Shown here: piece after piece, positions 24,916-44,107 of the stretch | Layout of the letters: every line of letters starts with the position of its first letter | Position numbering within the stretch: the first letter of the stretch is position 1 | Sequence record: AJ697969.1 | Direction: 5' to 3' (one strand) | DNA: 64,000 bases | From: Pseudomonas phage EL | Position numbers and translations under genes: made by a program | Notes under the pieces: generated by a model | What the model was told of the DNA's origin: nothing | The model's database searches: none | What the model saw: the letters and a program-made list of their open reading frames with translations, nothing else

Positions 24916-24979
24916 TCTTATGACATACATGGTGACACCTCGTCTCTATACCGCTGTCTAACTGAAAAGGGCCCTCCTA

Positions 24980-25588: not shown

Positions 25589-25624
25589 TTTCCCTTTAGA
25601 CTCTTTATCCAAGGAACGCTTCCA

Positions 25625-26701
25625 ATGGACAGTGTTGTACTTACCGAAGAAGACGGTAATGGTTATGAAATCCCGGATCTCCCTCATATCGGGATTGTGT
25701 ATGATGCGCTTAACGATACCCTGGATCAAGTGGATCGGGGTGTTGCAGGTACGGAAAGCCTGACCGCCTCCCAACAGTACCTGGTGGGTGCACTCGCTGC
25801 GAACCGACCTGGTTACTCGGTGACCGGTAACGAAGGCTTTATGGCCAATATCGGTGCAGGTCTTAAAGCCGCGTATGACTACGTGGTGAAGATGTTCAAG
25901 AGCCTCTGGGACTTCTTCTTCAAGCGTGATGTCTCTCAGAAGACCTCGGATGCTAAGAAGGAGATTGATGACCTCCAGACAAAACTGGAGGTGGTTCAGA
26001 CCGGGGGTAAGACGGAAGCGGAAACCCAGGAAGCCCTGCACTCCATGAAGGTCCAGGTTAAGGAACAGGCACAATCTGGCTTTAACATCGACGGGGTAGA
26101 CGCAGAAGAATGGGTGGAGAAAGAGACGAAGGCCTCCGCTACCCATGAGGAGAAGAAAGTCGCGGTTAAGACCCTGGCCAGAGAGCTTCCTAAGGTCAAC
26201 ACCCGGGGCAAGAAACGCCTCCAAGGTGTCATTGAGCGGATGATCAAAACTCAGCAATATTTGGTCAGTGTGATTGATATCGCCGATAAAGAAGCTCGGG
26301 AAACCCTGAATGAAAACCTCATGCGGGTAACGGACTCTATGAAACTCCTCCGCACCAATGTTCATCAGTCTACTGAGCAACTGAGTCGAGTGAAAGACGT
26401 CAAAGACCTGACGGCTGTACACAACGTCATGAACGGTGTTATTAAAGAGATCGATACCTTTAAGAATGCTGCTCAGGCCGTGCAGAGTGTTCGCGGCAAA
26501 ATGGCTGACAAGATTAAGATCGTTGAACAGCAATTGGCCGAGGTGGCTAAAGGTGGAGGTGACACCAAAGCGACTCAAGCAGCGCTGGATGAACTCCGCA
26601 AGATCATGAACTTCCTGGTTAAATGCGGTAAATGTATTACTAACATCATTGAAGACAGTGTGAAGCTCCAGAAAGCCTTTAATGGTGTCTTCGGGCTGTA
26701 A
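25625..26701 (+). CDS. paralog-family protein (probable virion/head protein); coiled-coil rich
   Basis: contains the family motif TGNE-GFMANIGAGLKAAYDYVVKMFKSLWDFFF shared with 30459, 41677 and 43061. Confidence 0.6.
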   Translation: MDSVVLTEEDGNGYEIPDLPHIGIVYDALNDTLDQVDRGVAGTESLTASQQYLVGALAANRPGYSVTGNEGFMANIGAGLKAAYDYVVKMFKSLWDFFFKRDVSQKTSDAKKEIDDLQTKLEVVQTGGKTEAETQEALHSMKVQVKEQAQSGFNIDGVDAEEWVEKETKASATHEEKKVAVKTLARELPKVNTRGKKRLQGVIERMIKTQQYLVSVIDIADKEARETLNENLMRVTDSMKLLRTNVHQSTEQLSRVKDVKDLTAVHNVMNGVIKEIDTFKNAAQAVQSVRGKMADKIKIVEQQLAEVAKGGGDTKATQAALDELRKIMNFLVKCGKCITNIIEDSVKLQKAFNGVFGL

Positions 26702-26710
26702 CCCTGGTAA

Positions 26711-26752
26711 CCCTTACTACCCCTCTCCCCGTGAAGGGAGAGGGGTAGTAAG
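26711..26752. terminator. bidirectional terminator, 18-bp perfect stem (CCTTACTACCCCTCTCCC / GGGAGAGGGGTAGTAAGG)
   Basis: lies between a convergent plus gene (stop 26701) and a minus gene (stop 26758). Confidence 0.75.
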
Positions 26753-26757
26753 GTCTA

Positions 26758-28563
26758 TTATGCGGTGTCTTGCACGGGTTCTTCCGTATCGATGTTAATA
26801 CGGGATTTACGGTTACGAGCGTTCGCTTGCATCTCCTTAAGCAGTTCCTCTCGACCTGTTTCCACCATTAACCGTTCAAACTCATCCTTCAATTGATCTA
26901 ATTGAGGGAATCTAAACAAATCATGGCATAATCCAATGGCGTTCGCTTCTGCACTGCTCGCAAAGTTCACCCCAATCTGCCTGAACTTATTGCCGTCAGC
27001 GCCTTGAATCCGAAACACTTCCATTTGTGTGGTACGATTCCCGACGTTCAATGCCAAGGTCGCGTGAGGGTACGCACCTTCAACATCGATATCGGACGAA
27101 TCTGTACGCCCAGTGCTGTATACATCAGCGAGTCCATGGAAGAGCTGAGCGCCGACATCCGCATTCTTCTCGGTATCGAGTAACGCAATCCAGTTTGACA
27201 ACGGAGGCAGTTTATCAATAATGGATTGATCGCGTTTACGAGGGGTACTCCCCCACACAAACCCATACCGGCGTGCAAAGAAACTCAAGGTATCACTGAC
27301 CAACTTGGGTTGAGAGACGTAGTTAAAATACTCCGAATACTTCAACAACATAGGAAGTGACAATGACAAGTCATTGGTCTTCTCATTGATCTCTTCAATA
27401 ACGAAGTCATCCCCAATGTTGTACATGCAATACAGATACGGCCATTTCCGTTGCATGTAACGGTGCCACTGAGGCGTACCCGGTCGGATATGAGCACCTT
27501 CTTCGGTATACAGTTTACCCGGTACGTTCACATGCTTCGCTGCTCCTTCTAACGAAACATCAGGAAGTTTACCTTCAGACGGTTGACGCTTAATGCAGAA
27601 GAACGACATCGCGTCTAACCATTGCCAGGTGGCCATGGTTCGAACAGTGGGCCATTTCTCTTGAGGTTCCAAGGGCATTTTAGAACCGTCTTCCTTGACT
27701 TTGTGGGTTCTCCCTAAGTTCAGCTCGTAATACCGAAATTCCTTAGGAATACTGGGATCGCAATACACATCCTCCAATCGATACCCTTCATTCCTAAGGG
27801 CTTCCTCATTCTTGGTCATGTCGTATTCAGCATTCCAACTGGCGACCCAGTCCGGTTGCCATTCGTGCATCTTGTTGATACACGCCACCACCACTTGACC
27901 TGGGGTATCAAAGAGTTCGTATTGAACCACACACTGACGCCGTTTAAGGTGTTCACTCAACCACTTGCCTTCAGCGTCTTTAAGGTGCTTAAGAATCGTG
28001 GCGTCATCCGGTTCTTTAAACCAACTCCGTACGGCTGCAAAATACGCCTTACGCTTCATGGTAACCGAGGCCATCATAATGGGGTTACCGGGAGCATCCA
28101 TGTCGGTTTCAACGTCGTACGCTGCTACGGTAAAGGGTTCCTTCTCCTGATGTTCTCCATATTTCTTAAAGAACTGGTGTTTAATGTGCACCGGAGGGGT
28201 TTGGTCTAAGCCGAAGACGTAAGGACTTTCTTTAGCTTCCGCTAGACTGGCTTTATAATCTGCTCGTCCATAGAGCTGTTTAATCACATTAAAGGCAATC
28301 TGTGCCCGGGGAGCCTTGTACTCCCGACACCAGGATTCTTCAATGTAATCTTTATGCTGTTTGTACTTCCGTTTGTTCTCTTTAACAATGTAGTACGGTT
28401 GCTTATAATCCTTAATCGAAATAAACGATTGACTTCGACCACCATCTTCATGAATATTGGTGATCTTTACACACGTTAAATCACTGCCCCTGTTGAACCT
28501 GCTGACCGAGTAATTACTGTGTTTGCAGACTTTAGCGACAATGGGTGAAGTATTCTCGACCAT
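26758..28563 (-). CDS. family B DNA polymerase, N-terminal fragment (3'-5' exonuclease Exo I-III plus polymerase motif A); C-terminal motifs absent
   Basis: Exo I AAYDVETDM; Exo II WNAEYDM; Exo III YNIGDD; motif A-like DVEGAYPHATLALNVGN (compare DxxSLYPSII). The ORF ends about 100 aa later with no YGDTDS. Confidence 0.55.
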   Translation of the reverse strand: MVENTSPIVAKVCKHSNYSVSRFNRGSDLTCVKITNIHEDGGRSQSFISIKDYKQPYYIVKENKRKYKQHKDYIEESWCREYKAPRAQIAFNVIKQLYGRADYKASLAEAKESPYVFGLDQTPPVHIKHQFFKKYGEHQEKEPFTVAAYDVETDMDAPGNPIMMASVTMKRKAYFAAVRSWFKEPDDATILKHLKDAEGKWLSEHLKRRQCVVQYELFDTPGQVVVACINKMHEWQPDWVASWNAEYDMTKNEEALRNEGYRLEDVYCDPSIPKEFRYYELNLGRTHKVKEDGSKMPLEPQEKWPTVRTMATWQWLDAMSFFCIKRQPSEGKLPDVSLEGAAKHVNVPGKLYTEEGAHIRPGTPQWHRYMQRKWPYLYCMYNIGDDFVIEEINEKTNDLSLSLPMLLKYSEYFNYVSQPKLVSDTLSFFARRYGFVWGSTPRKRDQSIIDKLPPLSNWIALLDTEKNADVGAQLFHGLADVYSTGRTDSSDIDVEGAYPHATLALNVGNRTTQMEVFRIQGADGNKFRQIGVNFASSAEANAIGLCHDLFRFPQLDQLKDEFERLMVETGREELLKEMQANARNRKSRINIDTEEPVQDTA

Positions 28564-28647
28564 TCCTTAACCCTGCATTTTATGATTGCTTTGGAGACTA
28601 TACCAATAGGGGTATAGGTCGGTATTTACAGTAGGAGTAACCCGTTA

Positions 28648-30009
28648 ATGTTGGACATGAGTTTTATTACCCGAAAGGTAGCGGGTACGGAGTTCATTGA
28701 GTTCCAGAATGCCACCTTTAAAGACGAATTAACCGCTTGTTTGGATCAGTACATTACGATTACTGATAAGCGTGTGGTATTATCCCCTGATTGCCAAGTG
28801 GACGTACTGGGACTCATTAAGAAACACACCGGCTTTAGCAACATAAAGCTGGAGTTGAACGACAGTGGTAACCTGTACATCGACGCGGGGTATTTCTCCC
28901 CGAACCATGTTCTGAACAACACGGGTACTGATGTGTTGATTCCAGCCTCTAAGACTACCCTGTATCGGTGGTTTGTGGAGAACAAGAACAAGATCTTTAA
29001 AGGAGGTGTTGATTACCGCTCCGGTAAAGTGACTGGTTCGTTCCAAGACGTCCCCTTGACTATTGGGATCAATGTCAACCTGCATCAGTTCTTCCCGTTG
29101 GATAAGATCACCAAATGGAAAGTCTCCATGGGGGGCGCGCTAGCGGGTGGTATTGCTCACGAACTGGGACATGCCTTTGGGGGGTGTGCGCTCCTGCTGA
29201 CTCACCTGGAAGACAACCTGGTAGCCCGAGCTGGCTTGGATCAGTACCGTAAAGCCACCAAAGCAGAAGAACGGGTGATTATCCTGAAAGACACCGCTGC
29301 TATTCTGGATGTCCCAGAAGCCAAGTTGGAGGAACTGAAGAGCTTTGCCGCCCAAGAAGATGGAGAGAACTACCTCCTCTACTACACCAAACTGCTCTCT
29401 CAACGGAATAACCGTCGTGCCCTGTCAGTTGGGGTTCCTGAGATGACCAGTGAAGTGATTGCGGATATGTACGCCATTCGTATGGGCTTCAGTAAGGAAG
29501 TGATTGCTGGGATCAGCGCTTTGGTGGACCGTGGTGTTTTTACCATCGCGACGGAGACCTTCCTGTTCGGTGCCGTTGCAACACTCTTCTTGTTTTGGCC
29601 TACAGCCGCTGTCACTATCATTGTTACCGGGGGAACGACGGCGCTGGGGGGTATGTTGTGGGGGGTCTTTGCCCTCAGTTCGGCCTTCGCGTATTTCCAA
29701 GCCGGGTATTCCGGGGTCTACAATTCCGACCACCGCCGTATGGAAGATGCTCTGCGTCAATTGATTGCTAAACTGAAAGCCAGTAAAACTGTTTCCAGTG
29801 AGGAACGGGTACGGTTGATTGACGACATCACCAAAGCCCTGGAAGCGGTTAAGAAACTTAAACCCTGGTACGACAACACTGTCCTCTACCGCTTTATTGG
29901 TTGGGTTTTCTCAGGCAGCGATTTCCGTAAGCAAGAAATCGAACACTTTACTCAATCCCTTAATAACCATGAACTGGCAGTCTTGTCCAGTCAACTGAAA
30001 ACGCTCTAA
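28648..30009 (+). CDS. membrane-associated zinc metalloprotease (HExxH; HtpX/M48-like or ImmA-like)
   Basis: GGIAHELGHAFGG, followed by two hydrophobic helices (TFLFGAVATLFLFWPTAAVTIIVTGG and LGGMLWGVFALSSAFAYF). Confidence 0.55.
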   Translation: MLDMSFITRKVAGTEFIEFQNATFKDELTACLDQYITITDKRVVLSPDCQVDVLGLIKKHTGFSNIKLELNDSGNLYIDAGYFSPNHVLNNTGTDVLIPASKTTLYRWFVENKNKIFKGGVDYRSGKVTGSFQDVPLTIGINVNLHQFFPLDKITKWKVSMGGALAGGIAHELGHAFGGCALLLTHLEDNLVARAGLDQYRKATKAEERVIILKDTAAILDVPEAKLEELKSFAAQEDGENYLLYYTKLLSQRNNRRALSVGVPEMTSEVIADMYAIRMGFSKEVIAGISALVDRGVFTIATETFLFGAVATLFLFWPTAAVTIIVTGGTTALGGMLWGVFALSSAFAYFQAGYSGVYNSDHRRMEDALRQLIAKLKASKTVSSEERVRLIDDITKALEAVKKLKPWYDNTVLYRFIGWVFSGSDFRKQEIEHFTQSLNNHELAVLSSQLKTL

Positions 30010-30019
30010 GGAGTTTATA

Positions 30020-30466
30020 ATGTCTCACCTCGCCCATGTAAACGATTACCGGGGTTACCTGACCAGTCAAGGGGTTACGTGCCCGTATGCGTTGACCACG
30101 GCCTGCCAGGAAGCCTACATCCGCGCCATTCTCAAACGCCATGCTCGTTCCCAGGACAGTTTCACCCTGGCAGAAGACGAAGAGAATAGCATCTGGGTGC
30201 AGCTCGATAAGTGGAATTCGGTGTATCCGATCAATGCTTCCTTCATCGTGGAATCGGTTAAACTCCGTCTGACCCGTATTCGCGGCTGTCTGATGAAAGA
30301 AGGTAAAACACCCGGTAATGCGGAATTCGATGTGTATCTGGATGTGAAGCGAACCTGTCCCGAGTCGGGTGACACCACGGTGGATAAACTCGATGCCACG
30401 GACAATGATCTGTTCTGTGAGCTGGTTCATTTCCTCTACAATGAATTGGTGAAAGGCAATGAGTAA
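30020..30466 (+). CDS. hypothetical protein
   Basis: 148-aa ORF. Confidence 0.55.
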   Translation: MSHLAHVNDYRGYLTSQGVTCPYALTTACQEAYIRAILKRHARSQDSFTLAEDEENSIWVQLDKWNSVYPINASFIVESVKLRLTRIRGCLMKEGKTPGNAEFDVYLDVKRTCPESGDTTVDKLDATDNDLFCELVHFLYNELVKGNE

Positions 30467-31976
30467 TCCAGTGAGTTCGTATTTCCAATTGAGTGATCCG
30501 GTTGACGGCGTGCTCCCAGGTGATGATAAACAACTCATTGACCTGGATGAGTACTACGAAGAAACCGGTCAACCCGTGGTGGATGCGATGGTCCAAGGGA
30601 GTGAGAGCCTCGCGCTCAATCGCTTCTCTCGGGACATTGCTATCCAACTCAAACTGAAGAATGCGTATGAAATGGATCCTTTCCCAACGGAACGTAATGC
30701 CGTGATGGGAGCGGAAGGGTTTATCTCTACCATTACGGAAGGGTTCAAGAAGTTCATTGAAGGGATCATCAAGTACATCAAGATGGCCTTTAAATGGGTT
30801 ATGGAACACATTAAAGGTCTCCTGGGCTTCCGTAAGAGCGCGCGTATTAACCAGGCGATTAATGACTCCTTTGAGAACCTCCGGGAGGAGTTCCGTCAGA
30901 CCTTGAACGGTCTGGGCTTCCCAAGTGCGAATTACAACCTGGAGAAGTTCATTGGGGAGTTCCCTAATGCCACCGACCGCATTGGTCAACTGACGATCCT
31001 CCGTACAAAGTTCGAAACCGATGAAGAGAGTATCGAGGCTCTTCGTAAAGTCTTCCCACTCTTCGAACAAATCATTGGTAAACTAACGGAGGCTTCTGAC
31101 AAGGCAATACGTGCGTCTGAAAACCTTAAAAGGACCATCCGTAACGAATACAACGCTACCCGGGGTCGGGCTCACCTCCGAGAGTACGTAGACGGTGCGA
31201 ACTCCCCTGAGGTTAACCGAGTCCAGAAAGCGGTGTTGGAAACCCTGACCTTCGTTAAACCGGATGGTTTAGTGGAACAGATCGGTCAGCTCCTGGAAAC
31301 CCTCTACAAGGTGAAGTTCGAAAACGAGGCGTTGAATGAAGGGTTCCATACCGTCCGAGAGACCCTTAAAGAGAACATTCAGGCTCAACGGGTGAAGTTG
31401 ACTCGGGTGAACACTCCGGTGATCATGGATCTCGTTCAGCAGCTCAACGCAGCGTATCTGACGATCTCGGATAAGGCGATCGACATGTCTCGGATTCGTC
31501 TGAGTGAGTTGGGTAATCTGGTGGATGTAACCGATGCTGAGAAGGTCAAGAGCATTGCGGGATACTACCAAGTCCCTGGACTCCTCAGTGATTACCAGGG
31601 CGTGGCGGTTGCCATGCGTAACTTCAGCCAATATTGCCAATCTGTAACCAGTCAGCTGTTGGCGGTTGAAAACCAAGTAGCAGCGTTGGTGGGTTGGTAT
31701 CACCGTTCTCACATGTGGTATTACCATGGTCTGCTGGATGACATTGAAAAGCTTCGTGAAATCAATATCCAAGCTCGCGAGGCGGGGCACTCTCCTGTGG
31801 CGAATGCGGAGGGTTATCCGACATTGACGTTGGATTTTATTCCGGAAGCGGATGCAAAGACCTTCCTGGAGAAGATGAGTGGGACGATGAAAATCGTGAT
31901 TGAAAACGACATTGGTGAGCTTCGTTCCAAGTACAATGCCTTGGCACGACAAACTGGATGGGGGAGACCCGTATGA
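30459..31976 (+). CDS. paralog-family protein (probable virion/head protein)
   Basis: family motif GAE-GFISTITEGFKKFIEGIIKYIKMAFKWV. Confidence 0.6.
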   Translation: MSNPVSSYFQLSDPVDGVLPGDDKQLIDLDEYYEETGQPVVDAMVQGSESLALNRFSRDIAIQLKLKNAYEMDPFPTERNAVMGAEGFISTITEGFKKFIEGIIKYIKMAFKWVMEHIKGLLGFRKSARINQAINDSFENLREEFRQTLNGLGFPSANYNLEKFIGEFPNATDRIGQLTILRTKFETDEESIEALRKVFPLFEQIIGKLTEASDKAIRASENLKRTIRNEYNATRGRAHLREYVDGANSPEVNRVQKAVLETLTFVKPDGLVEQIGQLLETLYKVKFENEALNEGFHTVRETLKENIQAQRVKLTRVNTPVIMDLVQQLNAAYLTISDKAIDMSRIRLSELGNLVDVTDAEKVKSIAGYYQVPGLLSDYQGVAVAMRNFSQYCQSVTSQLLAVENQVAALVGWYHRSHMWYYHGLLDDIEKLREINIQAREAGHSPVANAEGYPTLTLDFIPEADAKTFLEKMSGTMKIVIENDIGELRSKYNALARQTGWGRPV

Positions 31977-32704: not shown

Positions 32705-32716
32705 CGTAAAGGTGCT

Positions 32717-32748
32717 CCTACCCACTCCCTTAACGGGGAGTGGGTAGG
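32717..32748. terminator. bidirectional terminator CCTACCCACTCCC-TTAACG-GGGAGTGGGTAGG (near-identical to the hairpin at 58536)
   Basis: 13-bp perfect stem between convergent genes. Confidence 0.7.
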
Positions 32749-32758
32749 GGTATACGTC

Positions 32759-36762: not shown

Positions 36763-36795
36763 TGTTTATTACCTTAAAGTGATCAGGGGTTTATC

Positions 36796-37890
36796 ATGAT
36801 AGGACAAGTATTGTCTCTAGGTTCCTTCTTCTTGGACATCGCCAAGCAGCTGTATCCTGAGAGCAAGGATATCGCCTCGGCGGCCCAAGTAACGGACCGG
36901 GCCAAACATTCATACAATGTGATTTCCACGAGCTCGGTACAACGTAGTGCAGCCCGCACTATTTTGAATCCGATGGTCGCCATTGAGGGGTCCCTTATCC
37001 ACCAGGAATACACCCCGGATCTCATGACGGTGGTGACCCTACGGGATATTACCGCAACACTGACTCACCTGGCGTTGCAGAATTCCGTAGAAGTGGGGGT
37101 TAAGGTGGAGAACCTAATCGGGAGCATCAGTCCCAACCGCGGTGGGATGATGAGTCTCTTCTCGGGACTGGAAGCGATGGATAACAACATCAAACCCAAA
37201 GACCCAGCTACCCCGAACCAAGTTCAGGTCAATAGCAAGACCTACAGTGAACTGATGGAGTTCACCCCCCTGGCGGTGGGTAAAGTGGTGAACGCCACGC
37301 TCTACGGAGCGAATGGTAACAAGATCGAAGTTCCCCTCACCATTCGTCAGATCCCGATTCCGGTGACCCATGAGAACCTGGTGACCCTCTTCTCTGCCGC
37401 TAAACCCGATGAAGGGTTGAAGATGCGATGGATCATGAAGAAGAGTGGTGAGATCACCACGCCTCAGTGGTTCGATGGCAGTGACATCGTTAAAGCCCGT
37501 TTTAAAGCGAAAATGGGTGATACCTCCGGGTATTACAAGGAAGCCATGAAACGGGATACCCAGAATAAACTGGAAGCGATTCGTACGGGGATCATTAGCA
37601 TGAACTCCATGGCGAACACGGTCATCATCACTCAAGATACGGCGACTCAGCTCGAACTGGAAATCGGTCGTAAGTTTGCGGACCCGGTTAGCCGTGAAAA
37701 AATCTTCGAGAGTATTTCGGCGAATACCCTCGTTATCGTGAATGATGACCGGGGTATTTTCACGTTCTACACCGATGGTCAAACCATGCCGGAAGTTTAC
37801 ACACGTCGAGACTTGTCCGTTAAGTCCAAGAAAGAAGGCTCTGCGAACACGCTACAAGATCTCGTTAAACTGCTCAACGGGGGTCTCTAA
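36796..37890 (+). CDS. hypothetical protein
   Basis: 364-aa ORF. Confidence 0.65.
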   Translation: MIGQVLSLGSFFLDIAKQLYPESKDIASAAQVTDRAKHSYNVISTSSVQRSAARTILNPMVAIEGSLIHQEYTPDLMTVVTLRDITATLTHLALQNSVEVGVKVENLIGSISPNRGGMMSLFSGLEAMDNNIKPKDPATPNQVQVNSKTYSELMEFTPLAVGKVVNATLYGANGNKIEVPLTIRQIPIPVTHENLVTLFSAAKPDEGLKMRWIMKKSGEITTPQWFDGSDIVKARFKAKMGDTSGYYKEAMKRDTQNKLEAIRTGIISMNSMANTVIITQDTATQLELEIGRKFADPVSREKIFESISANTLVIVNDDRGIFTFYTDGQTMPEVYTRRDLSVKSKKEGSANTLQDLVKLLNGGL

Positions 37891-38774: not shown

Positions 38775-39279
38775 TTTTCGTCGCTCCCCCAATGGGTTTG
38801 TGAACGCAAAGCTGACGGATGCGGAGATGACAGAGGCCTTTACCAACCTCAATCTCCTCCGGAAGGATGCGTACAGTGATTTCGAATTGGTCATCAAAGG
38901 TCATGTGGCCATTGAAACCATTCGGGATGTCAGTCGGCTGGTGGGTCCCAGTTTCCGTCAGTTTATGGAAGCCAACTACGACAGTGGCCGTGGACCTATT
39001 GCAGGGTTGATCAAAGACATTGTTCATTACCTCAATGGGCGTATGGGTCACCACTCGCTGATTACGTCGCTCCGTATTGAAGAGCGTAAACTCCTGAGTG
39101 CGTCGAAAGTGCGTAAAGCGACCTACCGTCAAACCCAAACCACGGGCAGTCCGCTTCCGCTCCTGGAAGACGACTACATCGTCCACGACTACGATCTCTA
39201 TCGCCTAATGTCCGGTATCAGTCCTTCCAATGTAGGGCGGACCTTGTTGCTACTGGGCGGTGAGAATTACTACAGCTGA
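38767..39279 (+). CDS. hypothetical protein
   Basis: ATG at 38767 (MNSFRRSPNG...) overlapping the upstream stop; the track start 38674 is an upstream extension. Confidence 0.55.
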   Translation: MNSFRRSPNGFVNAKLTDAEMTEAFTNLNLLRKDAYSDFELVIKGHVAIETIRDVSRLVGPSFRQFMEANYDSGRGPIAGLIKDIVHYLNGRMGHHSLITSLRIEERKLLSASKVRKATYRQTQTTGSPLPLLEDDYIVHDYDLYRLMSGISPSNVGRTLLLLGGENYYS

Positions 39280-39301
39280 CCCTTAGGTGGAGAAGAGTGC
39301 A

Positions 39302-40597
39302 ATGAATGATGATGAAAAGACGTTGGCTGCTGAAATGGCTGCGGTCAGTGCAGTCAAATCCCAGGAGATCGTGGAAGCCGCCCGTTCCACGGCGGAACTG
39401 TCGGAGTACCAGAACAGCCTCGATGATCTGTTCGATCGCGTGATTGAAGTCCAACGCACGTTGAACACTCTGGAAGCCCACGAGGTGACACCGGAGTTGG
39501 CTGAACAGCTCGATAAAGAACTGATTGCGGCAGAAGCCCTCCCAGAGGCCGTAGAAGGGGCGGAAGCCTTGGGGTTTACCCTTCTCCCTAAGGCATACCT
39601 TGCGACGCGTCTAGCGGGCTGTGAGAGCTTCCTGAGCGACTTCTTTAAGAGCTCCCGGGAAGTAGTCAGTTTGATTGGAACCTTCTTCCGGGATTCGTAC
39701 GTTCTCTTTATGGAATCCCAGGAGAGTCTGAGTAAGCAGATTGACCTGCTGGAAACCCGGTTGTCCTCTGTCGAGAAGTTTGGCAGTCAAGGTACCTTTA
39801 TCCTGGGTCACCGTCTCTTTAACCGGTTTAAGATCAACGGTAAAGTGGATGAGAACTGGTCCGGTAACCTGACCAAGCTCAACCAAACCCTGTCGGGTCT
39901 GAGTAATAACTATTACCTCAACAGCAAGAATGCGTTGGCGGCATCATTCAGTTACTTCGGTGGGTTTGCAGGTCTGACCCAAGTGGAAGTGGATGAACGC
40001 CTCTGCATGATGCCGGTGAGTCTACCATCAACGCCGTTTAAGGAATGTACTTATCCGGATAAACGCCGTTCGGGACCTAACGTGGTGGCTAAACGGTCGG
40101 TCGAGCTGATGGGTGGTGCGTACTTCTACGATGTTCGCAGTACCGTTAAACCGGTGATCCTGAAGAACCCTGACGACATTCAAGACTTTGTGATCCGTTA
40201 CACTGAAATTGATCACACCGGTTTCGATAACAACGAAGAGTATACCCTTCGGGATGTTGGGGCTGAAGTGAAGGCGTTGTCGAGTGAAGACATTAAGACT
40301 GTCATCAAACTCCTGCGTCAGCTCTTGAAAGACTGGGGTAAGGTCTTTGAAATGGCGGAGACCTACCGCGTAACGGATTCGGATTACAACGACATCATTA
40401 AAGGTTTCCTGGAAGCCGATATCAGTGATGAGGCGAAGACGGTGTTGTCGAAGACGTTCGCTAAAGTCGTTCGTAAGAACCAAACCGAGCTCTTGGGTAT
40501 TCGCGCTGAGGTCTCGAACTACCTCACTCTGATTGTCAACGGGATGGTGTCTATCTGTAACGATTCCATTGGGCTTTACGAAGAAAGCCTGGACTAA
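39302..40597 (+). CDS. paralog-family-like protein with acidic N-terminal region
   Basis: motif AGCE-SFLSDFFKSSREVVSLIGTFF; ATG 39302 with a GGAGAAG RBS (the track GTG is at 39287). Confidence 0.6.
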   Translation: MNDDEKTLAAEMAAVSAVKSQEIVEAARSTAELSEYQNSLDDLFDRVIEVQRTLNTLEAHEVTPELAEQLDKELIAAEALPEAVEGAEALGFTLLPKAYLATRLAGCESFLSDFFKSSREVVSLIGTFFRDSYVLFMESQESLSKQIDLLETRLSSVEKFGSQGTFILGHRLFNRFKINGKVDENWSGNLTKLNQTLSGLSNNYYLNSKNALAASFSYFGGFAGLTQVEVDERLCMMPVSLPSTPFKECTYPDKRRSGPNVVAKRSVELMGGAYFYDVRSTVKPVILKNPDDIQDFVIRYTEIDHTGFDNNEEYTLRDVGAEVKALSSEDIKTVIKLLRQLLKDWGKVFEMAETYRVTDSDYNDIIKGFLEADISDEAKTVLSKTFAKVVRKNQTELLGIRAEVSNYLTLIVNGMVSICNDSIGLYEESLD

Positions 40598-40610
40598 GCG
40601 GGGTGAGGGT

Positions 40611-41624
40611 ATGAGCGCGGGTTATAAAAGCCAATACGTTGATGCCCTCGAACAACACCAGGACCTGATGCAGGCTCACTCAGAACTCCTTGAGTTGGGC
40701 AGTATCATGGGAATGGATGATGTCGAGGGCAGTGAGGCGTTGAAAGAAGCCGCCATGGACAGTTTGTCTTCGGTAGGTCGGGGTTTGTTCAGTGTGAGTA
40801 AATGGGTCGGGGGTAAAGCGATTGATGGCTTTATTCGTGGTATGACGACCGCAGGTAATCAACTGAACAAGAGTTTCAATGACAACCAAGGACTTATTAA
40901 AAATGTCCTTAAAGACGCTGGTAAGGTGGCTGACAAAGATATTCAGGTTACTGGCAAGAAGATTGGACTGATTACCGCGACCGGTAATCCTGACCGTATT
41001 CTCCACGACATGGAACTCCTGGTTAAGGACCTCGAAGTCGTTGAACAGCACGCCAAAGACCTGATGGGGTTCTTGGACCGTGAATTGGTGACCTTGAGGC
41101 AGTTGAAATCGGCTAAGAAGTCCGAAGACATTCACAAGGTCATTGACGCGTTCAACGGGTTGGAATACCCGGTTATGAAGTTCGCTGACCGGTTGGATAA
41201 GGCGTATAAGTCTGAGGTGCTACCGGGTGGTCGTTTCTTCCTCTTCAAACAGGAAGAAGACGATAAACCTGCGGTGTATTCCATTGGGGGTGAACCGCAT
41301 GAAGGGGAAGGGGTGACCCTGAACCTGTCTAAAACCGAGGTCACTGACATTCTGAATAAACTCGGGAAGGTCAATGCGTTGCACTTGCGGGTTAAGGCAT
41401 CGTATGAGAGTTATCTCGGATTCATCAAATCTTGGGCAGAAATGGTCAAAGGTGTTGATGGTAACTTGAGTCAATTGGATCAAGTGAGTAAGACGGTAAT
41501 AGGCGAAGCTGAGAAGCTAATGGCCGGGAACATGGGGGCTCTCGCATTTTATAGCGGATTCACTCCTCGTGTGGTCGGTTATACCGATAAGTACATTCAT
41601 GGTGTACTTGGGGTATTCGCTTGA
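40611..41624 (+). CDS. hypothetical protein (weak paralog-family resemblance)
   Basis: ATG 40611 after the upstream stop; GLFSVSKWVGGKAIDGFIRGM. Confidence 0.6.
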   Translation: MSAGYKSQYVDALEQHQDLMQAHSELLELGSIMGMDDVEGSEALKEAAMDSLSSVGRGLFSVSKWVGGKAIDGFIRGMTTAGNQLNKSFNDNQGLIKNVLKDAGKVADKDIQVTGKKIGLITATGNPDRILHDMELLVKDLEVVEQHAKDLMGFLDRELVTLRQLKSAKKSEDIHKVIDAFNGLEYPVMKFADRLDKAYKSEVLPGGRFFLFKQEEDDKPAVYSIGGEPHEGEGVTLNLSKTEVTDILNKLGKVNALHLRVKASYESYLGFIKSWAEMVKGVDGNLSQLDQVSKTVIGEAEKLMAGNMGALAFYSGFTPRVVGYTDKYIHGVLGVFA

Positions 41625-41676
41625 TTTGTTTATAAACAATCATTCCATTTCGTTAACGAAACAAAGGAAACAACTC

Positions 41677-42933
41677 ATGAGTATTCTCGATCGCTACACT
41701 GGCATGGAAGAGCTTCTGGAGAACGGCGCGGACAACCTCGAAGATGGTGTGACCGAAGCCGCTGTCGAAGAAGTTCGTGCTGACATCGCCGAGGTTGTGG
41801 CAGAGGTAGAACAGGTCGCGGCTGAAGTCGAAGAACTGCGTGATGACCTGGAAGAGCACGAAGAAGTCGTCGAAGAACTGGCTGAAGAAGTCGAAGGCCT
41901 GGAAAGCATGCTGAGCTCGGGTCAGTTCAGCTCCGTTGGTTTCGCTCACAGCTACAACAAGGCCCTGCGCCTGAACGCCAAGCTGGGCGGCCAATCCTTC
42001 GAACGCCTGGGTGCGGAATCCATCTCCGACGCTGCCACCGCCAAGATCGCTTCGGTGACTGGCGTTGAAGCCTTCATGGACACCGTGAAGAACGCCGGTA
42101 AGAAAGCCGCCGAGTTCATCAAGGCGATCTTCAACACCGTCATCAACTTCTTCGTGGGTCTGTTCAGCACCGCTGCCGGTATCGACCGTCGTCGCGCACA
42201 GCTCGCCGACAAACTCGGTAAAGCCGACAAGCTGAAAGAGAAAATCAAGCTGGGCAAATGGAACATCGGTGTCGACTACGCCAAGAACGGCGCGGACATC
42301 CTGGACAAAGGTCCGTTCACCAAAGTCCTGAGCGATTCCCTGCCGGCCTTCATCGACATCGGCAAGAACCTCGACGGCGTCAACGCCTCCCAGTTCAAGA
42401 CTGCGTACAACAGCCTGGTCGCTGACGTCAAAGCCGTTGTGAAAGAAACCGGCGGAAATGCCACTGAGAAAGGTTCCGGTGACAAGCGTCAAGTCCTGGC
42501 TGCACGTGCCGGCTTCGGCATCTATCTCACCTTCGAAGAGAAGGTCGATACCGATGAAGAAGTCCTGGCTGCCGCGCGTTCCATCAAGCTGTCCTTCGGC
42601 AAGAACAAGGACGCCTCCGAGTTCGCCAAAGGTGAAGCGGCTGTCAAGGCAACCAAAGCACAACTGGAAAGCCTGCTGAAAACTGTGAGCAGTACCGTAT
42701 CCGTTCTGAAAGACAGCAAGATCAGCCAGAAGTTCTCCAAGGCTGAACGTGACCGTGTCGTCGGCACCCTGAACGCCAAAGGTGGTGACAAGGACGCCAA
42801 GGCCGGCACCGACAAGGCGATCAAACTGGTGCGCGCGCTGTACAGCACCGGTGCGAGCCTGACCCAGTCGGTCAACCGTCTGCTGGCTTACCAAGCCAAG
42901 CAATCGCTGGATCTGGTTGCGGCTCACCTGTAA
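41677..42933 (+). CDS. abundant paralog-family protein with acidic coiled-coil N-terminus (probable major internal head / scaffold-like protein)
   Basis: strongly optimised GC3-rich codon usage (ctg, cgt, ggt, aac, ttc, gaa) unlike neighbouring genes; motif TGVE-AFMDTVKNAGKKAAEFIKAIFNTVINFF; AAGGAAAC RBS; the track start 41569 precedes the bias change. Confidence 0.7.
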   Translation: MSILDRYTGMEELLENGADNLEDGVTEAAVEEVRADIAEVVAEVEQVAAEVEELRDDLEEHEEVVEELAEEVEGLESMLSSGQFSSVGFAHSYNKALRLNAKLGGQSFERLGAESISDAATAKIASVTGVEAFMDTVKNAGKKAAEFIKAIFNTVINFFVGLFSTAAGIDRRRAQLADKLGKADKLKEKIKLGKWNIGVDYAKNGADILDKGPFTKVLSDSLPAFIDIGKNLDGVNASQFKTAYNSLVADVKAVVKETGGNATEKGSGDKRQVLAARAGFGIYLTFEEKVDTDEEVLAAARSIKLSFGKNKDASEFAKGEAAVKATKAQLESLLKTVSSTVSVLKDSKISQKFSKAERDRVVGTLNAKGGDKDAKAGTDKAIKLVRALYSTGASLTQSVNRLLAYQAKQSLDLVAAHL

Positions 42934-42964
42934 GGTCGAGTGTTAGGATCTATTCCTAGAGGTA

Positions 42965-42996
42965 CTACAGGTAGGGGGATCTCCCCCTACCTGTAG
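42965..42996 (+). terminator. hairpin terminator (CTACAGGTAGGGGGA / TCCCCCTACCTGTAG)
   Basis: 15-nt arms 32 nt after the stop. Confidence 0.6.
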
Positions 42997-43060
42997 CCTT
43001 TATGTCGCAATACTGTAATTTCGATGCTATGTACTCAACTTGACTATTAGGTTGTTAACG

Positions 43061-44107
43061 ATGAATACGCATCCTGTAGCGCCCCTCCGATACGTGAATT
43101 CACCGACGGTGTATGAAGAGTATGAGGAGGATAGGGAGGGTTATAATCTAGTCAACGACGAAACGACTATGGTTGCACTCTCCAGAGAGAACGACAAGAT
43201 CAGTGGATTAGAAAGTGTCTACAACTACGTTCTCCACCGACATCAGAATCGGTTGACTGCTTCGACCGGTACTGAGGGGTTTATTGATTCCGTTAAACAC
43301 GGTATCGGTAAACTCATTCAAGTGGTTAAGGATTTCTTTAAGTGGATTTGGAGTTTCTTTGGGACCAAAGGGAAAGCCCTGAAAGACAAAGGAGATGAAC
43401 TGGAGGTCGCTCTTAAAGCCAATGGTGTACGGGAGGATGACATTCCGTATCCCAAAGCCGCCTTTTATATCTTCCCTAAAACGACCAAGTTACCGTCGAA
43501 TGTGGCGTGGGTGGGTAGCGTCATCGGGGATATTGAGCGTGGGATTAAGACGATTGAACGGTACAGTGCAAGTGTGGGGAACTTCTGTAAGGAATTAGGT
43601 CGTCTGATTGACCATTCGAAATACGCAGAATTCACCACCAAACAGAAGGCCTTCTACCAAGAGGTTAAGGGTCTGTTAGGAGTGAACGCGAACCAGGAAG
43701 CCACCCTGGTGGTTAAAGATGACCTGGTCGTGGGTAAGAACACCGTGGAAGTGACGATTAACCTGACGCGGGGGCTGGGTGTCCTGTCGGCTGATCGAGT
43801 GAAGAACGCGACCTTTAAGACTAATGTTTCGCAGGTGCGCGAACTCCTGGTCAAGCACAATCGTCTAACAGAATCCCTCAAGGACATGAACACTAAAGTC
43901 CATTCGTTGGAGAATGACTTTGTAACGGCGCTAATGGCAAGTTTGGACGTTAAAGAGGCGTCTCCTGAAGCTCAGGCTGCCATTAAGGAGATGAAAGCCG
44001 TGATTCGTAAAGCCATGGCGAGTCTTAAAGTCATGGAGACGGAAGTGTATCGGAGTGCTAACGCTGTTTACGCGGTGTTGGAAGCCGCTGTGAAGAGAAG
44101 GAGCTAA
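43061..44107 (+). CDS. paralog-family protein (probable virion/head protein)
   Basis: motif TGTE-GFIDSVKHGIGKLIQVVKDFFKWIWSFF; ATG at 43061. Confidence 0.65.
   Translation: MNTHPVAPLRYVNSPTVYEEYEEDREGYNLVNDETTMVALSRENDKISGLESVYNYVLHRHQNRLTASTGTEGFIDSVKHGIGKLIQVVKDFFKWIWSFFGTKGKALKDKGDELEVALKANGVREDDIPYPKAAFYIFPKTTKLPSNVAWVGSVIGDIERGIKTIERYSASVGNFCKELGRLIDHSKYAEFTTKQKAFYQEVKGLLGVNANQEATLVVKDDLVVGKNTVEVTINLTRGLGVLSADRVKNATFKTNVSQVRELLVKHNRLTESLKDMNTKVHSLENDFVTALMASLDVKEASPEAQAAIKEMKAVIRKAMASLKVMETEVYRSANAVYAVLEAAVKRRS

What the first reader, a model, noticed from the sequence alone, without database searches (positions are those of the whole stretch)
25625..44107. Family of six paralogous proteins sharing a conserved '[ST]G-x-E / [GA]F...' motif, one of them with extreme high-expression codon bias (probable processed head / inner-body proteins)
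Four proteins share the block xG-x-E-[GA]-F-[MI]-x-x-[IV]-x-x-G-x-K-x-x-x-x-[FYV]-[IV]-x-x-[IVM]-x-x-x-[FW]-x-x-FF. These are TGNE-GFMANIGAGLKAAYDYVVKMFKSLWDFFF (25625), GAE-GFISTITEGFKKFIEGIIKYIKMAFKWV (30459), TGVE-AFMDTVKNAGKKAAEFIKAIFNTVINFF (41677) and TGTE-GFIDSVKHGIGKLIQVVKDFFKWIWSFF (43061). Two further proteins have weaker versions: 39302 (AGCE-SFLSDFFK...) and 40611. The motif is usually preceded by acidic, coiled-coil N-terminal regions. The S/A/G-x-E motif immediately before the conserved hydrophobic block matches the cleavage specificity reported for phiKZ-type prohead proteases, and the phiKZ inner-body proteins are a paralogous family. This suggests N-terminal propeptide removal at exactly this point.
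Basis: partly seen in the sequence, partly recalled or inferred. Interest (0 to 1): 0.65.

Follow-up and report, generated by a model that had tools for sequence, protein, structure and literature searches.

The report
Phage EL internal head protein family
The window is Pseudomonas jumbo phage EL, and the flagged genes are its copies of the already known phiKZ-type internal head ("inner body"/ejection) proteins; the shared motif is very probably the head-protease cutting site plus the first helix of the mature protein, so this is a correct but largely known finding with a few new divergent members.

Summary
All quoted motifs are present. Each of the four strong copies (gp50, gp54, gp63, gp64) is found by a profile of the other three at 16-25 bits, against at most 8.6 bits in 10,600 shuffles. 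gp63 has the strongest codon bias in the window, above the major capsid protein.

The window is phage EL. gp61, gp62 and gp63 are Pfam PF12699 (phiKZ_IP) proteins, and gp64 is a divergent full-length member. gp50 and gp54 share mainly the N-terminal module. I found a seventh copy in the window (gp66, module internal) and an eighth elsewhere in a 98.5%-identical genome.

The motif Glu of gp63 aligns exactly with mass-spectrometry-verified maturation cuts in Salmonella phage SPN3US gp53 and gp54. The same G-x-E|[GSA]-hydrophobic pattern recurs in the pro-regions of the capsid and portal proteins and in the C-terminal tail of the S80 protease. Cleavage at this point is therefore well supported by homology, but it has not been shown in EL.

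The family, its paralogy and its processing are published. New here are the divergent members, the tandem G-x-E sites and the EL-type site consensus. Interest is low to moderate.

The parts
25625..26701 (+). EL gp50 (A), 358 aa. It has an acidic pro-region, candidate cuts GTE44|SL and GNE70|GF, then the helix GFMANIGAGLKAAYDYVVKMFKSLWDFFF. The predicted mature part is 32 kDa, pI 9.1.
   Evidence: Exact match to YP_418083. G68, E70, G71, F72 and WDFFFKRD are invariant in 19 orthologs. hhalign against the gp64 family gives E=7e-11, and against a PF12699 alignment E=6e-6. No Pfam hit. AF2 model is all-helical, pLDDT 83.
25826..25921 (+). gp50 main site G-N-E|G-F plus amphipathic aromatic helix (aa 68-99)
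30459..31976 (+). EL gp54 (B), 505 aa, labelled virion structural protein. Candidate cuts are GSE49|SL and GAE86|GF, followed by the helix GFISTITEGFKKFIEGIIKYIKMAFKWV. It is the positional counterpart of SPN3US gp47 and phiKZ gp86.
   Evidence: Exact match to YP_418087. G47, E49, G84, E86 and G87 are invariant in 22 orthologs. 6 of 22 orthologs hit PF12699 profile positions about 46-132, the best at 35.6 bits. hhalign against the gp50 family gives E=8e-7 over 210 columns. Synteny is stated in PMC5694885. No sequence homology to gp47.
30708..30827 (+). gp54 main site G-A-E|G-F plus helix (aa 84-123)
36796..37890 (+). EL gp58, the homolog by position of phiKZ gp89 and SPN3US gp50 (both known processed head proteins). 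Its candidate cut GLE126|AM is conserved as GIE|SF in a divergent relative. It is not a family member but a likely fellow protease substrate.
39302..40597 (+). EL gp61 (C), 431 aa, virion structural protein and a PF12699 member. Candidate cuts are GAE88|AL and GCE108|SF.
   Evidence: Pfam 165 bits. G-C-E is conserved in L004. Exact match to YP_418094.
40611..41624 (+). EL gp62 (D), 337 aa, a borderline PF12699 member with a short pro-region. Its candidate cut GSE42|AL is degenerate; in the L004 ortholog the site shifts to GTE, 3 residues upstream.
   Evidence: Pfam 24.4 bits, below the 27-bit cut-off, matching the mature domain. Orthologs in L004 and L005 carry PF12699. Alignment.
41677..42933 (+). 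EL gp63 (E), 418 aa, 'internal head protein' and probably the dominant paralog. Candidate cuts are GLE76|SM, GAE114|SI and GVE131|AF. The predicted mature part is 30.6 kDa, pI 9.7. It has the strongest codon bias in the window.
   Evidence: Pfam 166 bits. E131 aligns with verified SPN3US gp53 E125 and gp54 E137. Codon bias. Exact match to YP_418096.
42061..42171 (+). gp63 main site G-V-E|A-F plus helix AFMDTVKNAGKKAAEFIKAIFNTVINFFVGLF
43061..44107 (+). EL gp64 (F), 348 aa, a divergent full-length family member. Candidate cuts are GLE51|SV and GTE72|GF. The helix ends in the invariant KDFFKWIWSFF.
   Evidence: Ortholog alignment. hhalign against a PF12699 alignment gives E=1.4e-7 over 254 columns. 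No Pfam hit. The RefSeq model is 36 codons too short.
44609..46015 (+). EL gp66 (G), 468 aa from the RefSeq start. The module is internal: GSE|GQVFDSIKAVARNAYQAALSGWEQLKAWY, with the Glu codon at 45386-45388. It follows a roughly 260-aa N-terminal domain containing a Cys cluster, and is followed by a basic Lys/Ala/Glu-rich C-terminal part.
   Evidence: phrog_35992 hit at the module, E=1.5e-9. G-S-E-G-x-V-F-D is conserved in L004 and L005. hhalign against the gp50 family gives E=3.8e-5. The distant G-like protein P0262 has a canonical internal module. This is the weakest member: hhalign against the gp64 family gives only E=0.047.
56233..56697 (+). N-terminal pro-region of the major capsid protein gp78, carrying four copies of the same site pattern: GNE35|SF, GQE51|GF, GAE120|GF and GAE153|AL. 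It is unrelated to the family and serves as independent evidence that the pattern is the protease site.
   Evidence: GAE120|GF lies 4 residues upstream of the column that holds the verified phiKZ E163|N164 and SPN3US ATE130 cuts (PMC11297242, PMC5694885).

Best explanation
The genes are the phage EL set of phiKZ-type internal head proteins, also called inner-body or ejection proteins (Pfam PF12699, 'paralog family A').

Anatomy. Each protein starts with an acidic pro-region, or in gp66 with an N-terminal domain. This region contains one to three sites of the form G-x-E|[G/S/A]-hydrophobic. Directly after the last site comes a strongly conserved, aromatic-rich amphipathic helix, which is the first helix of a helix-rich mature domain.

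Proposed mechanism (inferred from phiKZ and SPN3US, not shown in EL):
1. The proteins are made late. gp63 is made in very large amounts.
2. They are incorporated into the prohead through the N-terminal region.
3. The Peptidase S80 prohead protease, encoded outside the window, cuts after the Glu of each site.
4. The N-terminal fragments leave or stay attached to the inner capsid wall.
5. The mature parts begin at the G/A/S-F helix and are basic in gp50, gp63, gp64 and gp66 (pI 9.1-9.7). They remain with the DNA and are ejected into the host.

gp61, gp62, gp63 and gp64 are full-length family members. gp50, gp54 and gp66 share mainly the N-terminal processing module.
For: Identity of the window: exact protein matches to phage EL.

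Family:
- Pfam PF12699 scores are 165 and 166 bits for gp61 and gp63, and 24.4 bits for gp62.
- hhalign links: gp64 family to PF12699 alignment E=1.4e-7 over 254 columns; gp50 family to gp64 family 7e-11; gp50 family to PF12699 6e-6; gp54 family to gp50 family 8e-7; gp54 family to PF12699 6e-5.
- 6 of 22 gp54 orthologs hit PF12699.
- The gene order matches the phiKZ gp87-97 and SPN3US gp44-54 blocks.

Cleavage site:
- gp63 E131 is in the same alignment column as the MS-verified SPN3US gp53 E125 and gp54 E137 cuts, and as phiKZ gp93 SLE156, gp94 SQE214 and gp97 SLE532 (PMC10052503).
- Across 143 cluster representatives found with a module profile, P3 Gly and P1 Glu are conserved in 145 of 148 matched stretches, P1' is G or S, and P2 is free. 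A second upstream G-x-E is 90-93% conserved.
- G.E[GAS][FLIWMV] occurs 20 times in the window proteins against 5.3 +/- 2.3 in shuffles.
- It occurs 37 times against 16.6 +/- 4.0 genome-wide in a 98.5%-identical phage. The sites sit in the capsid pro-region, the portal homolog (E231, E296), the C-terminal tail of the S80 protease (E209, E252) and the gp89-like protein.

Helix: the hydrophobic moment is 0.5-0.7, above shuffles. It is the most conserved segment in three families, with 0.64-0.78 identity against 0.35-0.59 for the rest.

Abundance: codon bias of gp63. This parallels Goslar gp58 at about 2,150 copies and SPN3US gp53/54 at more than 600 copies (10.64898/2026.04.21.720040; PMC5694885).
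Against: - There is no experimental datum for EL in hand. The EL virion proteome paper (Lecoutere 2009) and the phiKZ cleavage paper (Thomas 2012) could not be read.
- In the EL records only gp54, gp61 and gp63 of the seven carry virion labels. gp50, gp62, gp64 and gp66 are 'hypothetical'.
- The motifs of gp61, gp62 and gp66 are not significant by motif profile alone.
- The gp62 site is not positionally conserved in its ortholog.
- gp50 and gp54 match PF12699 only through the N-terminal part. The gp54 structure model was unusable (pLDDT 55). The gp50 model did not retrieve named PF12699 proteins at significant scores.
- [SAG]-x-E is a short pattern and common by chance, so the argument depends on conservation and context.
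Confidence: 0.82

Rival explanations
1. The motif is conserved only because it is the first helix of a shared fold, that is, plain paralogy. Under this reading it is not the site actually cut in EL. Cleavage occurs only at the upstream sites, or not at all in the minor members gp50, gp62, gp64 and gp66, which might not even be virion proteins.
For: The EL records do not label gp50, gp62, gp64 or gp66 as virion proteins. Every protein also has an upstream G-x-E site that could be the real or only cut. In SPN3US only 9 of about 55 head proteins are cleaved, and processing of ejection proteins varies between phages (PMC10052503, PMC5694885).
Against: The exact column holds verified maturation cuts in SPN3US gp53 and gp54. 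The conservation pattern is invariant P3 and P1 with a free P2, which is what a protease site predicts and a helix-capping motif does not. The same five-residue pattern appears in unrelated substrates: capsid, portal and protease.
Confidence: 0.1
2. The shared element is a portable cassette: pro-region, tandem G-x-E sites, then a helix. It has been grafted by recombination onto otherwise unrelated cargo proteins (gp54, gp66, perhaps gp50). Under this reading these proteins are not diverged duplicates of one ancestral internal head protein.
For: gp54 orthologs match only PF12699 profile positions about 46-132. hhalign of the gp54 and gp66 families to the PF12699 alignment covers only the module, or nothing. 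In gp66-type proteins the module is internal, behind a 200-270 aa unrelated N-terminal domain. Only 31 of 126 module-bearing representatives are recognised by Pfam PF12699.
Against: The gp54 family aligns with the gp50 family over 210 columns beyond the module (E=8e-7). A local PF12699-type HMM aligns gp50 over residues 36-305, though weakly at 14 bits. All members are helical, fast-evolving proteins, for which loss of detectable similarity after duplication is expected. Goslar paralogs invisible to Pfam still share the predicted fold (10.64898/2026.04.21.720040).
Confidence: 0.3
3. The conserved aromatic amphipathic helix, exposed as the new N-terminus by cleavage, is primarily a membrane-active element. 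It would act after ejection, for example in forming or docking to the early phage infection vesicle, rather than as a structural helix of the inner body.
For: The helices have high hydrophobic moment and 16-25% aromatic residues in EL. In SPN3US gp47 the equivalent segment directly after the ALE111 cut is a predicted transmembrane helix, KD19 2.58 (PMC5694885). phiKZ PF12699 proteins are injected and associate with a lipid compartment (10.1101/2024.03.24.586471).
Against: No EL helix reaches transmembrane hydrophobicity; KD19 is at most 1.5. hhalign and the AF2 model place the helix as part of the helical domain. The phiKZ equivalents are Lys-rich and poor in aromatics. There is no direct evidence.
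Confidence: 0.15

Closest known systems
Pfam PF12699 phiKZ_IP, also called 'paralog family A': phiKZ gp92-97, gp162 and gp163; SPN3US gp53 and gp54; Goslar gp53-58
   Same: These are paralogous, helix-rich, often high-copy proteins encoded in the syntenic operon downstream of the gp89, gp90 and gp91 homologs. They have a long acidic N-terminal region that the prohead protease cuts after Glu directly before a conserved amphipathic helix. One paralog dominates. gp61 and gp63 are bona fide members, and the cleavage column is shared.
   Different: In EL the site consensus is G-x-E|[GSA]-hydrophobic. SPN3US uses A-x-E, and phiKZ uses mostly S-x-E in its paralogs. The EL helices are aromatic-rich. 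Several EL members (gp50, gp54, gp64, gp66 and an eighth gene) fall below Pfam detection. Virion presence, copy number and injection are untested for EL here.
SPN3US gp47, phiKZ gp86 and 201phi2-1 gp148 (essential ejection or vertex-complex head protein)
   Same: The gene position between the gp46-like and gp48-like genes is the same. The architecture is also the same: an N-terminal propeptide with two A/G-x-E sites (gp47 AVE79, ALE111) followed immediately by a hydrophobic helix (PMC5694885). EL gp54 was already named there as the positional counterpart.
   Different: There is no detectable sequence similarity between the gp54 family and gp47 (hhalign E=0.088). The gp47 helix is a predicted transmembrane segment, whereas the gp54 helix is amphipathic. 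gp54 is linked to PF12699 and gp50 through its N-terminal module, a link not reported for gp47.
phiKZ gp175 / SPN3US gp245 prohead protease (Peptidase S80) and its S/A/G-x-E specificity
   Same: The EL-type genome encodes an S80 protease (PF20034, 249 bits). The candidate sites have Glu at P1 and a small residue at P3. They occur in the same substrate set: capsid, portal, the protease C-terminus, the gp89-like protein and the internal proteins.
   Different: The inferred EL preference is narrower: Gly at P3, G/S/A at P1' and a hydrophobic residue at P2'. It is derived only from sequence conservation and enrichment, not from mapped cuts.
T4 internal proteins IPI-III and Alt, with capsid targeting sequences cut by gp21
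   Same: These are proteins packaged inside the head with the DNA and injected. They are targeted by an N-terminal sequence that the prohead protease removes after a Glu. The mature parts are basic.
   Different: T4 targeting sequences are 10-20 residues long with a single cut. There is no homology. The jumbo-phage pro-regions are 40-130 residues or more, have several cuts, and in phiKZ partly persist as capsid-lining proteins (PMC5694885, PMC11297242).

Membership tests
Pfam PF12699 (phiKZ_IP) internal head proteins | Match to the Pfam HMM at or above the gathering score (27 bits) | tested here: inconclusive
   Met by gp61 (165.1 bits) and gp63 (166.2 bits). gp62 scores 24.4 bits, just below the cut-off. 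gp50, gp54, gp64 and gp66 have no hit. 6 of 22 gp54 orthologs hit, the best at 35.6 bits, but only on profile positions about 46-132.
Pfam PF12699 (phiKZ_IP) internal head proteins | Homology across the helix-rich mature domain | tested here: inconclusive
   The gp64 family is met: hhalign E=1.4e-7 over 254 columns from the motif to the C-terminus. The gp50 family matches over 107 N-terminal columns only. The gp54 family matches over 64 columns. gp66 has no match. Structure comparison could not settle the matter.
Pfam PF12699 (phiKZ_IP) internal head proteins | Location in the syntenic head operon downstream of the gp89, gp90 and gp91 homologs | tested here: met
   gp61-gp66 follow gp58, gp59 and gp60 in the same order as phiKZ gp89-97 and SPN3US gp50-54. 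The order is kept in the divergent contigs L004 and L005. gp50 and gp54 lie upstream in the same head-gene block. An eighth member lies about 90 kb away, as phiKZ gp162 and gp163 do.
Pfam PF12699 (phiKZ_IP) internal head proteins | [quoted passage not shown] | not testable with these tools
   Only sequence-level support is available. The gp63 site is in the same column as verified SPN3US cuts, conservation follows the pattern of a protease site, and the pattern is enriched in other substrates.
Pfam PF12699 (phiKZ_IP) internal head proteins | Presence in the virion (often at high copy) and ejection into the host | not testable with these tools
   Record labels only. gp54 and gp61 are 'virion structural protein' and gp63 is 'internal head protein'. 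gp50, gp62, gp64 and gp66 are 'hypothetical'. Codon bias suggests very high expression of gp63.
SPN3US gp47 / phiKZ gp86 ejection-protein family | Sequence homology to gp47 or gp86 | tested here: not met
   hhalign of the gp54 family against SPN3US gp47 gives E=0.088, probability 0.6%. phiKZ gp86 itself was not compared.
SPN3US gp47 / phiKZ gp86 ejection-protein family | Conserved gene position, and a propeptide cut directly before a hydrophobic helix | tested here: met
   The position is the same as gp47, between the gp46-like and gp48-like genes. gp54 has GSE49 and GAE86 followed by a helix, against gp47 AVE79 and ALE111 followed by a transmembrane helix.
Substrates of Peptidase S80 prohead proteases | An S80 protease is encoded by the phage | tested here: met
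   In the 98.5%-identical HHBS47_1 genome, positions 192833-193696 match PF20034 at 249 bits and phrog_3014 'head maturation protease'. The gene lies outside the window.
Substrates of Peptidase S80 prohead proteases | A [S/A/G]-x-E site at a position homologous to a mapped cut | tested here: met
   gp63 E131 aligns with SPN3US gp53 E125 and gp54 E137. Capsid GAE120 lies within 4 residues of the phiKZ E163 and SPN3US E130 column. Portal E296 lies near the SPN3US gp81 cut at residue 254, allowing for an offset of about +53.

The most novel reading that the evidence does not exclude
The roughly 100-residue unit is an acidic pro-region with two G-x-E|small-hydrophobic sites, followed by an aromatic amphipathic helix. 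Under the novel reading it is a self-contained, transferable 'package, cut and release' cassette of EL-like jumbo phages. It would be found on at least eight genes per genome and on about 230 protein clusters in public data, three quarters of them invisible to Pfam. It would be attached to different cargo domains, including internally in gp66-type proteins. The helix that becomes the new N-terminus after cleavage would be the functional business end, acting in protease docking, inner-body packing or membrane/vesicle engagement after ejection. It would not be just the first helix of a fold.
Probability: 0.25. Interest if true: 0.55.

Novelty: new member of a known kind. Interest (0 to 1): 0.3.

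Why it matters
PF12699 proteins are packed into jumbo-phage heads by the thousand and injected with the DNA. Their role is openly called an unsolved question of chimallivirus biology (10.64898/2026.04.21.720040).

For EL this analysis gives:
- a fuller parts list of eight module-bearing genes instead of the two or three that Pfam sees;
- predicted mature N-termini that mass spectrometry can test directly;
- a candidate recognition pattern for the EL protease;
- a defined N-terminal module that could be tried as a tag for loading foreign proteins into jumbo-phage heads.

None of this overturns current understanding. It extends a published picture from phiKZ, SPN3US and Goslar to EL.

Tried and rejected
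- Pairwise BLAST among the six proteins is only marginal (E 0.003-0.035), so profiles were needed.
- Motif-only HMMs do not pick up gp61, gp62 or gp66. I therefore do not claim their motifs are significant by themselves.
- The AlphaFold model of gp54 had pLDDT 55 and was discarded.
- The good gp50 model (pLDDT 83) retrieved only uncharacterised jumbo-phage proteins from BFVD (TM 0.63-0.70). It retrieved no named PF12699 protein at a significant score, so fold membership of gp50 stays open.
- The gp54 family shows no homology to SPN3US gp47.
- The solved-structure search found only phiKZ gp93 (8y6v). Its resolved part is residues 14-84, which is not the motif region (PMC11297242).
- P0297, an 850-aa hit of the module profile, is a false positive. 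It is a concatemeric microvirus-like sequence without any G-x-E site.
- The 707-aa gene at the end of L004 is not the capsid gene, so capsid-site conservation in the divergent clade was not tested.
- The key experimental papers could not be opened: Thomas 2012 (phiKZ cleavage sites), Thomas 2010 and Thomas & Black 2013. The EL virion-proteome paper (Lecoutere 2009) carries no PubMed Central id in the reference lists read and was not looked up. phiKZ paralog cut positions are therefore taken only from what later open papers quote.
- A transmembrane reading of the EL helices was rejected on hydrophobicity.

Full report
**What the window is.** The 20 kb around the finding is 97-98.5% identical to several 210-kb Pseudomonas aeruginosa jumbo phages. 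Eight tested proteins match phage EL proteins residue for residue (contig 211,215 bp), so the window is phage EL.

| Gene | Window start | Label in the EL records |
|---|---|---|
| gp50 | 25625 | hypothetical |
| gp54 | 30459 | virion structural protein |
| gp61 | 39302 | virion structural protein |
| gp62 | 40611 | hypothetical |
| gp63 | 41677 | internal head protein |
| gp64 | 43061 | hypothetical |

The block has the gene order of phiKZ gp84-97 and SPN3US gp44-54, including the two minus-strand genes in the middle.

**Checking the observation.** Every quoted string is present in the stated ORF. Pairwise BLAST between the four strong copies is only marginal (E 0.003-0.035 in a 53-protein database). 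Profiles settle the question. An HMM built from any three of gp50, gp54, gp63 and gp64 finds the fourth at 15.8-24.2 bits. The best of 10,600 shuffled window proteins scores 8.6 bits, and no other real window protein exceeds about 0.4 bits.

The 'weaker' motifs of gp61 (GCE|SF) and gp62 (GSE|AL) sit at the right place. They are not significant as motif matches when left out of the model (3.4 and 2.7 bits).

The codon-bias claim is correct and striking. gp63 has Nc 30.7 and GC3 0.70, ahead of the major capsid protein gp78 (Nc 34.2, phrog_3231). All other genes lie at 43-61. The bias of gp63 points the same way as that of the capsid gene (r=0.92), and its CAI is 0.77 against a window median of 0.38.

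The regions before the motif are acidic (pI 4.1-4.9). The parts after it are basic in gp50, gp63, gp64 and gp66 (pI 9.1-9.7).

**What the proteins are.**
- gp61 and gp63 are strong matches to Pfam PF12699, 'phiKZ-like phage internal head proteins' (165 and 166 bits). gp62 is just below the cut-off at 24.4 against 27 bits, matching through its mature domain.
- gp50, gp54 and gp64 have no Pfam hit, so I collected their homologs and compared profiles.
- The gp64 family matches an alignment of PF12699 members (EL, a divergent EL-like contig, SPN3US gp53/54, phiKZ gp92-95 and gp97) at E=1.4e-7 over 254 columns. The match begins exactly at the motif and runs to the C-terminus. gp64 is therefore a divergent full-length member.
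- The gp50 family matches the gp64 family at E=7e-11 over the N-terminal 86 columns, and the PF12699 alignment at E=6e-6 over 107 N-terminal columns.
- The gp54 family matches the gp50 family at E=8e-7 over 210 columns, and the PF12699 alignment at E=6e-5 over the motif region.
- 6 of 22 gp54 orthologs hit PF12699 individually, the best at 35.6 bits, always on profile positions about 46-132.
- A locally built PF12699-type HMM that excludes these proteins ranks gp50, gp64, gp54 and gp66 as the four best non-members among 53 window proteins.

- gp66 (44609-46015) carries the module internally...IEGSE|GQVFDSIKAVARNAYQAALSGWEQLKAWY. It hits the same PHROG as gp50 and gp64 at that spot (phrog_35992, E=1.5e-9). 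The site is conserved in two divergent relatives. A distant gp66-like protein has a textbook internal module, GIE|SY...GSE|GFMDTVKAG...FDFF. gp66 is still the weakest link: hhalign E=3.8e-5 to the gp50 family, 0.047 to the gp64 family, and nothing to PF12699.
- I scanned all six-frame ORFs of the 98.5%-identical HHBS47_1 genome with the module profile. It found the seven window genes plus one independent eighth gene at 154382-155437 on the minus strand. That gene encodes 351 aa with MGTE|GM...AGNE|GFLSSIGEGIKKAWEYIKNLFKSIF, and scored 56.8 bits there and 57.3 bits with a model that had no input from it. Nothing else was found; the next best E was 0.75. The eighth gene belongs to the gp50 PHROG.

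**Is the motif a cleavage site?** Four lines of evidence agree.
1. Homology to mapped cuts. In a MAFFT alignment of PF12699 members, gp63 E131 shares its column with SPN3US gp53 E125 and gp54 E137. Mass spectrometry identified both as the maturation cuts (PMC10052503). The column also holds phiKZ gp93 SLE156, gp94 SQE214 and gp97 SLE532. The residues after the SPN3US cuts (GWKETLKDLFERFVELCKAV..., SLWDDIKAFLQRIFDWL...) form the same kind of helix. In SPN3US gp47, the positional counterpart of gp54, the ALE111 cut is followed directly by a predicted transmembrane helix (PMC5694885).
2. Conservation pattern. A profile of the seven window modules finds 228 cluster representatives at E<=1e-3 among 1.84 billion proteins. 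In 148 matched stretches from the 143 newly retrieved representatives among the 150 best hits, the main site reads [T/A/S]-G-x-E-[G/S]-F. Gly and Glu are each present in 145 of 148 stretches, and P2 is freely variable. A second G-x-E-[S/G/A] site lies 20-40 residues upstream in 90-93% of stretches. Invariant P3 and P1 with a free P2 is what a protease site predicts.
3. The same pattern in unrelated substrates. G.E[GAS][FLIWMV] occurs 20 times in the window proteins against 5.3 +/- 2.3 in shuffles (maximum 13 of 500). Sixteen of the 20 lie in the six genes, in gp58 and in the capsid pro-region. Genome-wide in HHBS47_1 it occurs 37 times against 16.6 +/- 4.0 (maximum 27 of 300). The extra sites fall where biology predicts:
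   - two in the first 300 residues of the portal homolog (E231, E296; homologous to SPN3US gp81, whose propeptide is 254 residues);
   - two in the C-terminal tail of the Peptidase S80 head protease (E209 and E252 of 287 residues; S80 proteases remove their own C-terminus) (PMC10052503).

   Capsid GAE120|GF lies four residues from the column holding the verified phiKZ E163|N164 and SPN3US ATE130 cuts (PMC11297242, PMC5694885).
4. Selection. In the gp50, gp54 and gp64 families the 32 residues after the site are the most conserved stretch, with pairwise identity 0.64-0.78 against 0.35-0.59 for the rest. WDFFFKRD and KDFFKWIWSFF are invariant at about 30% overall identity.

**The helix.** All EL post-site segments have a helical hydrophobic moment of 0.5-0.7, above shuffled controls, and 16-25% aromatic residues (8% in gp62). 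None reaches transmembrane hydrophobicity, unlike SPN3US gp47. In the confident AlphaFold model of gp50 (pLDDT 83, pTM 0.80) the protein is all-helical and residues 76-100 form one helix.

**How it most likely works.** This is inferred from phiKZ, SPN3US and Goslar, and is not shown for EL.
1. The proteins are made late, gp63 in very large amounts. Compare Goslar gp58 at about 2,150 copies and SPN3US gp53/54 at more than 600 copies.
2. They enter the prohead through their N-terminal regions.
3. The S80 protease cuts at two or three G-x-E sites per protein.
4. The mature helix-rich, often basic, parts stay with the DNA and are ejected into the cell.
5. The N-terminal pieces are not necessarily waste. 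In phiKZ, residues 14-84 of gp93 and 19-134 of gp162 remain as fibre-like proteins cementing capsomers on the inner wall (PDB 8y6v found; PMC11297242).

**Comparison with what is known.** The following are all published:
- the family, its paralogy, its variable copy number between phages and its processing (PMC5694885, PMC10052503, 10.1101/2024.03.24.586471);
- the observation that neighbours invisible to Pfam share the fold (Goslar gp54-57, 10.64898/2026.04.21.720040);
- EL gp54 as the positional counterpart of gp47 and gp86 (PMC5694885).

What this analysis adds:
- the sequence links that tie gp50, gp54, gp64, gp66 and an eighth gene to the family through a defined N-terminal module;
- the tandem-site architecture;
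- an EL-type site consensus (Gly at P3, small P1', hydrophobic P2'), against A-x-E in SPN3US and S-x-E in the phiKZ paralogs;
- the fact that only 31 of 126 module-bearing cluster representatives are recognised by PF12699.

**Caveats.**
- No EL experiment was available.
- Four of the seven window proteins carry no virion label.
- The gp62 site is not positionally conserved in its ortholog.
- gp66 membership is weak.
- The gp54 family shows no homology to SPN3US gp47.
- Whether gp50, gp54 and gp66 are diverged duplicates or carry a transferred cassette is open.

**Verdict.** This is a known kind with new divergent members, of low to moderate interest.

Noticed in passing
window 43061-43168 (first 36 codons of gp64): The RefSeq/UniProt model of EL gp64 (YP_418097, Q2Z117) is 312 aa. 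The 348-aa ORF from ATG 43061 is the one conserved in relatives: M1, V6, A7, L9, R10, P15, T16 and D24 are invariant at about 31% overall identity. The database model therefore appears to lack 36 N-terminal residues of the pro-region.
   Followed up: partly
window 45218-45271 (gp66 aa 215-232 from ATG 44576): A cysteine cluster, ECAGGDTCECGCVLDH, is conserved in divergent orthologs as EC..(5)..C.CGC..DH. It lies about 40 residues upstream of the internal cleavage-type motif of gp66 and may be a metal-binding site. Its function is unknown.
   Followed up: no
HHBS47_1 (PQ287649.1) 154382-155437, minus strand; L008 42383-43438: An eighth module-bearing gene lies outside the window. It encodes 351 aa and belongs to the same PHROG as gp50, with GTE39|GM and GNE69|GF sites and a canonical helix. 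Its placement away from the main operon is analogous to phiKZ gp162 and gp163.
   Followed up: yes
window 56329-56697 (capsid gp78 aa 33-155): The capsid pro-region carries four G-x-E|[GSA]-hydrophobic sites (E35, E51, E120, E153), and a fifth in HHBS47_1. This suggests the roughly 120-153-residue propeptide is chopped into small pieces. The likely mature N-terminus is G121.
   Followed up: partly
HHBS47_1 192833-193696 (protease) and 95552-98524 minus strand (portal homolog): The Peptidase S80 head protease has two candidate self-cleavage sites in its C-terminal tail (GLE209|SL, GTE252|SF). The 990-aa portal homolog has GLE231|SL and GAE296|GL. Both match the processing known from SPN3US.
   Followed up: partly
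window 37165-37179 (gp58 aa 124-128): gp58 is the counterpart of the processed head proteins phiKZ gp89 and SPN3US gp50. It has a conserved GLE126|AM site, which is GIE|SF in the divergent contig L004.
   Followed up: partly
window 12708-15818 and 15888-18170: Two adjacent large genes share two similar stretches (51% identity over 143 aa and 39% over 128 aa) in a P-loop/helicase-like region. The first matches a 653-position PHROG labelled 'RNA polymerase beta subunit' across 1,034 residues, so it seems to hold a large insertion or to be mislabelled.
   Followed up: no
window 41653-42927 minus strand and 24977-26578 minus strand: Long antisense ORFs of 424 and 533 aa lie opposite gp63 and opposite gp49-gp50. 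They are most likely by-products of the composition of the sense genes (GC3-rich in gp63), not genes. A greedy longest-ORF caller picks the wrong strand at gp50.
   Followed up: partly
protein P0294 (metagenomic, 637 aa): In one relative the gp53-like and gp54-like genes are fused into a single ORF, with the cleavage module at aa 152-261. This may be a true fusion or a frameshift or assembly error.
   Followed up: no
loci L004 (234.5-kb contig) and L005: Metagenomic contigs from a divergent EL-like lineage keep the whole gp56-gp70 gene order. Their proteins are 31-58% identical to EL for gp61-gp64 and gp66. EL-like phages are therefore a broader environmental group than the P. aeruginosa isolates suggest.
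   Followed up: partly
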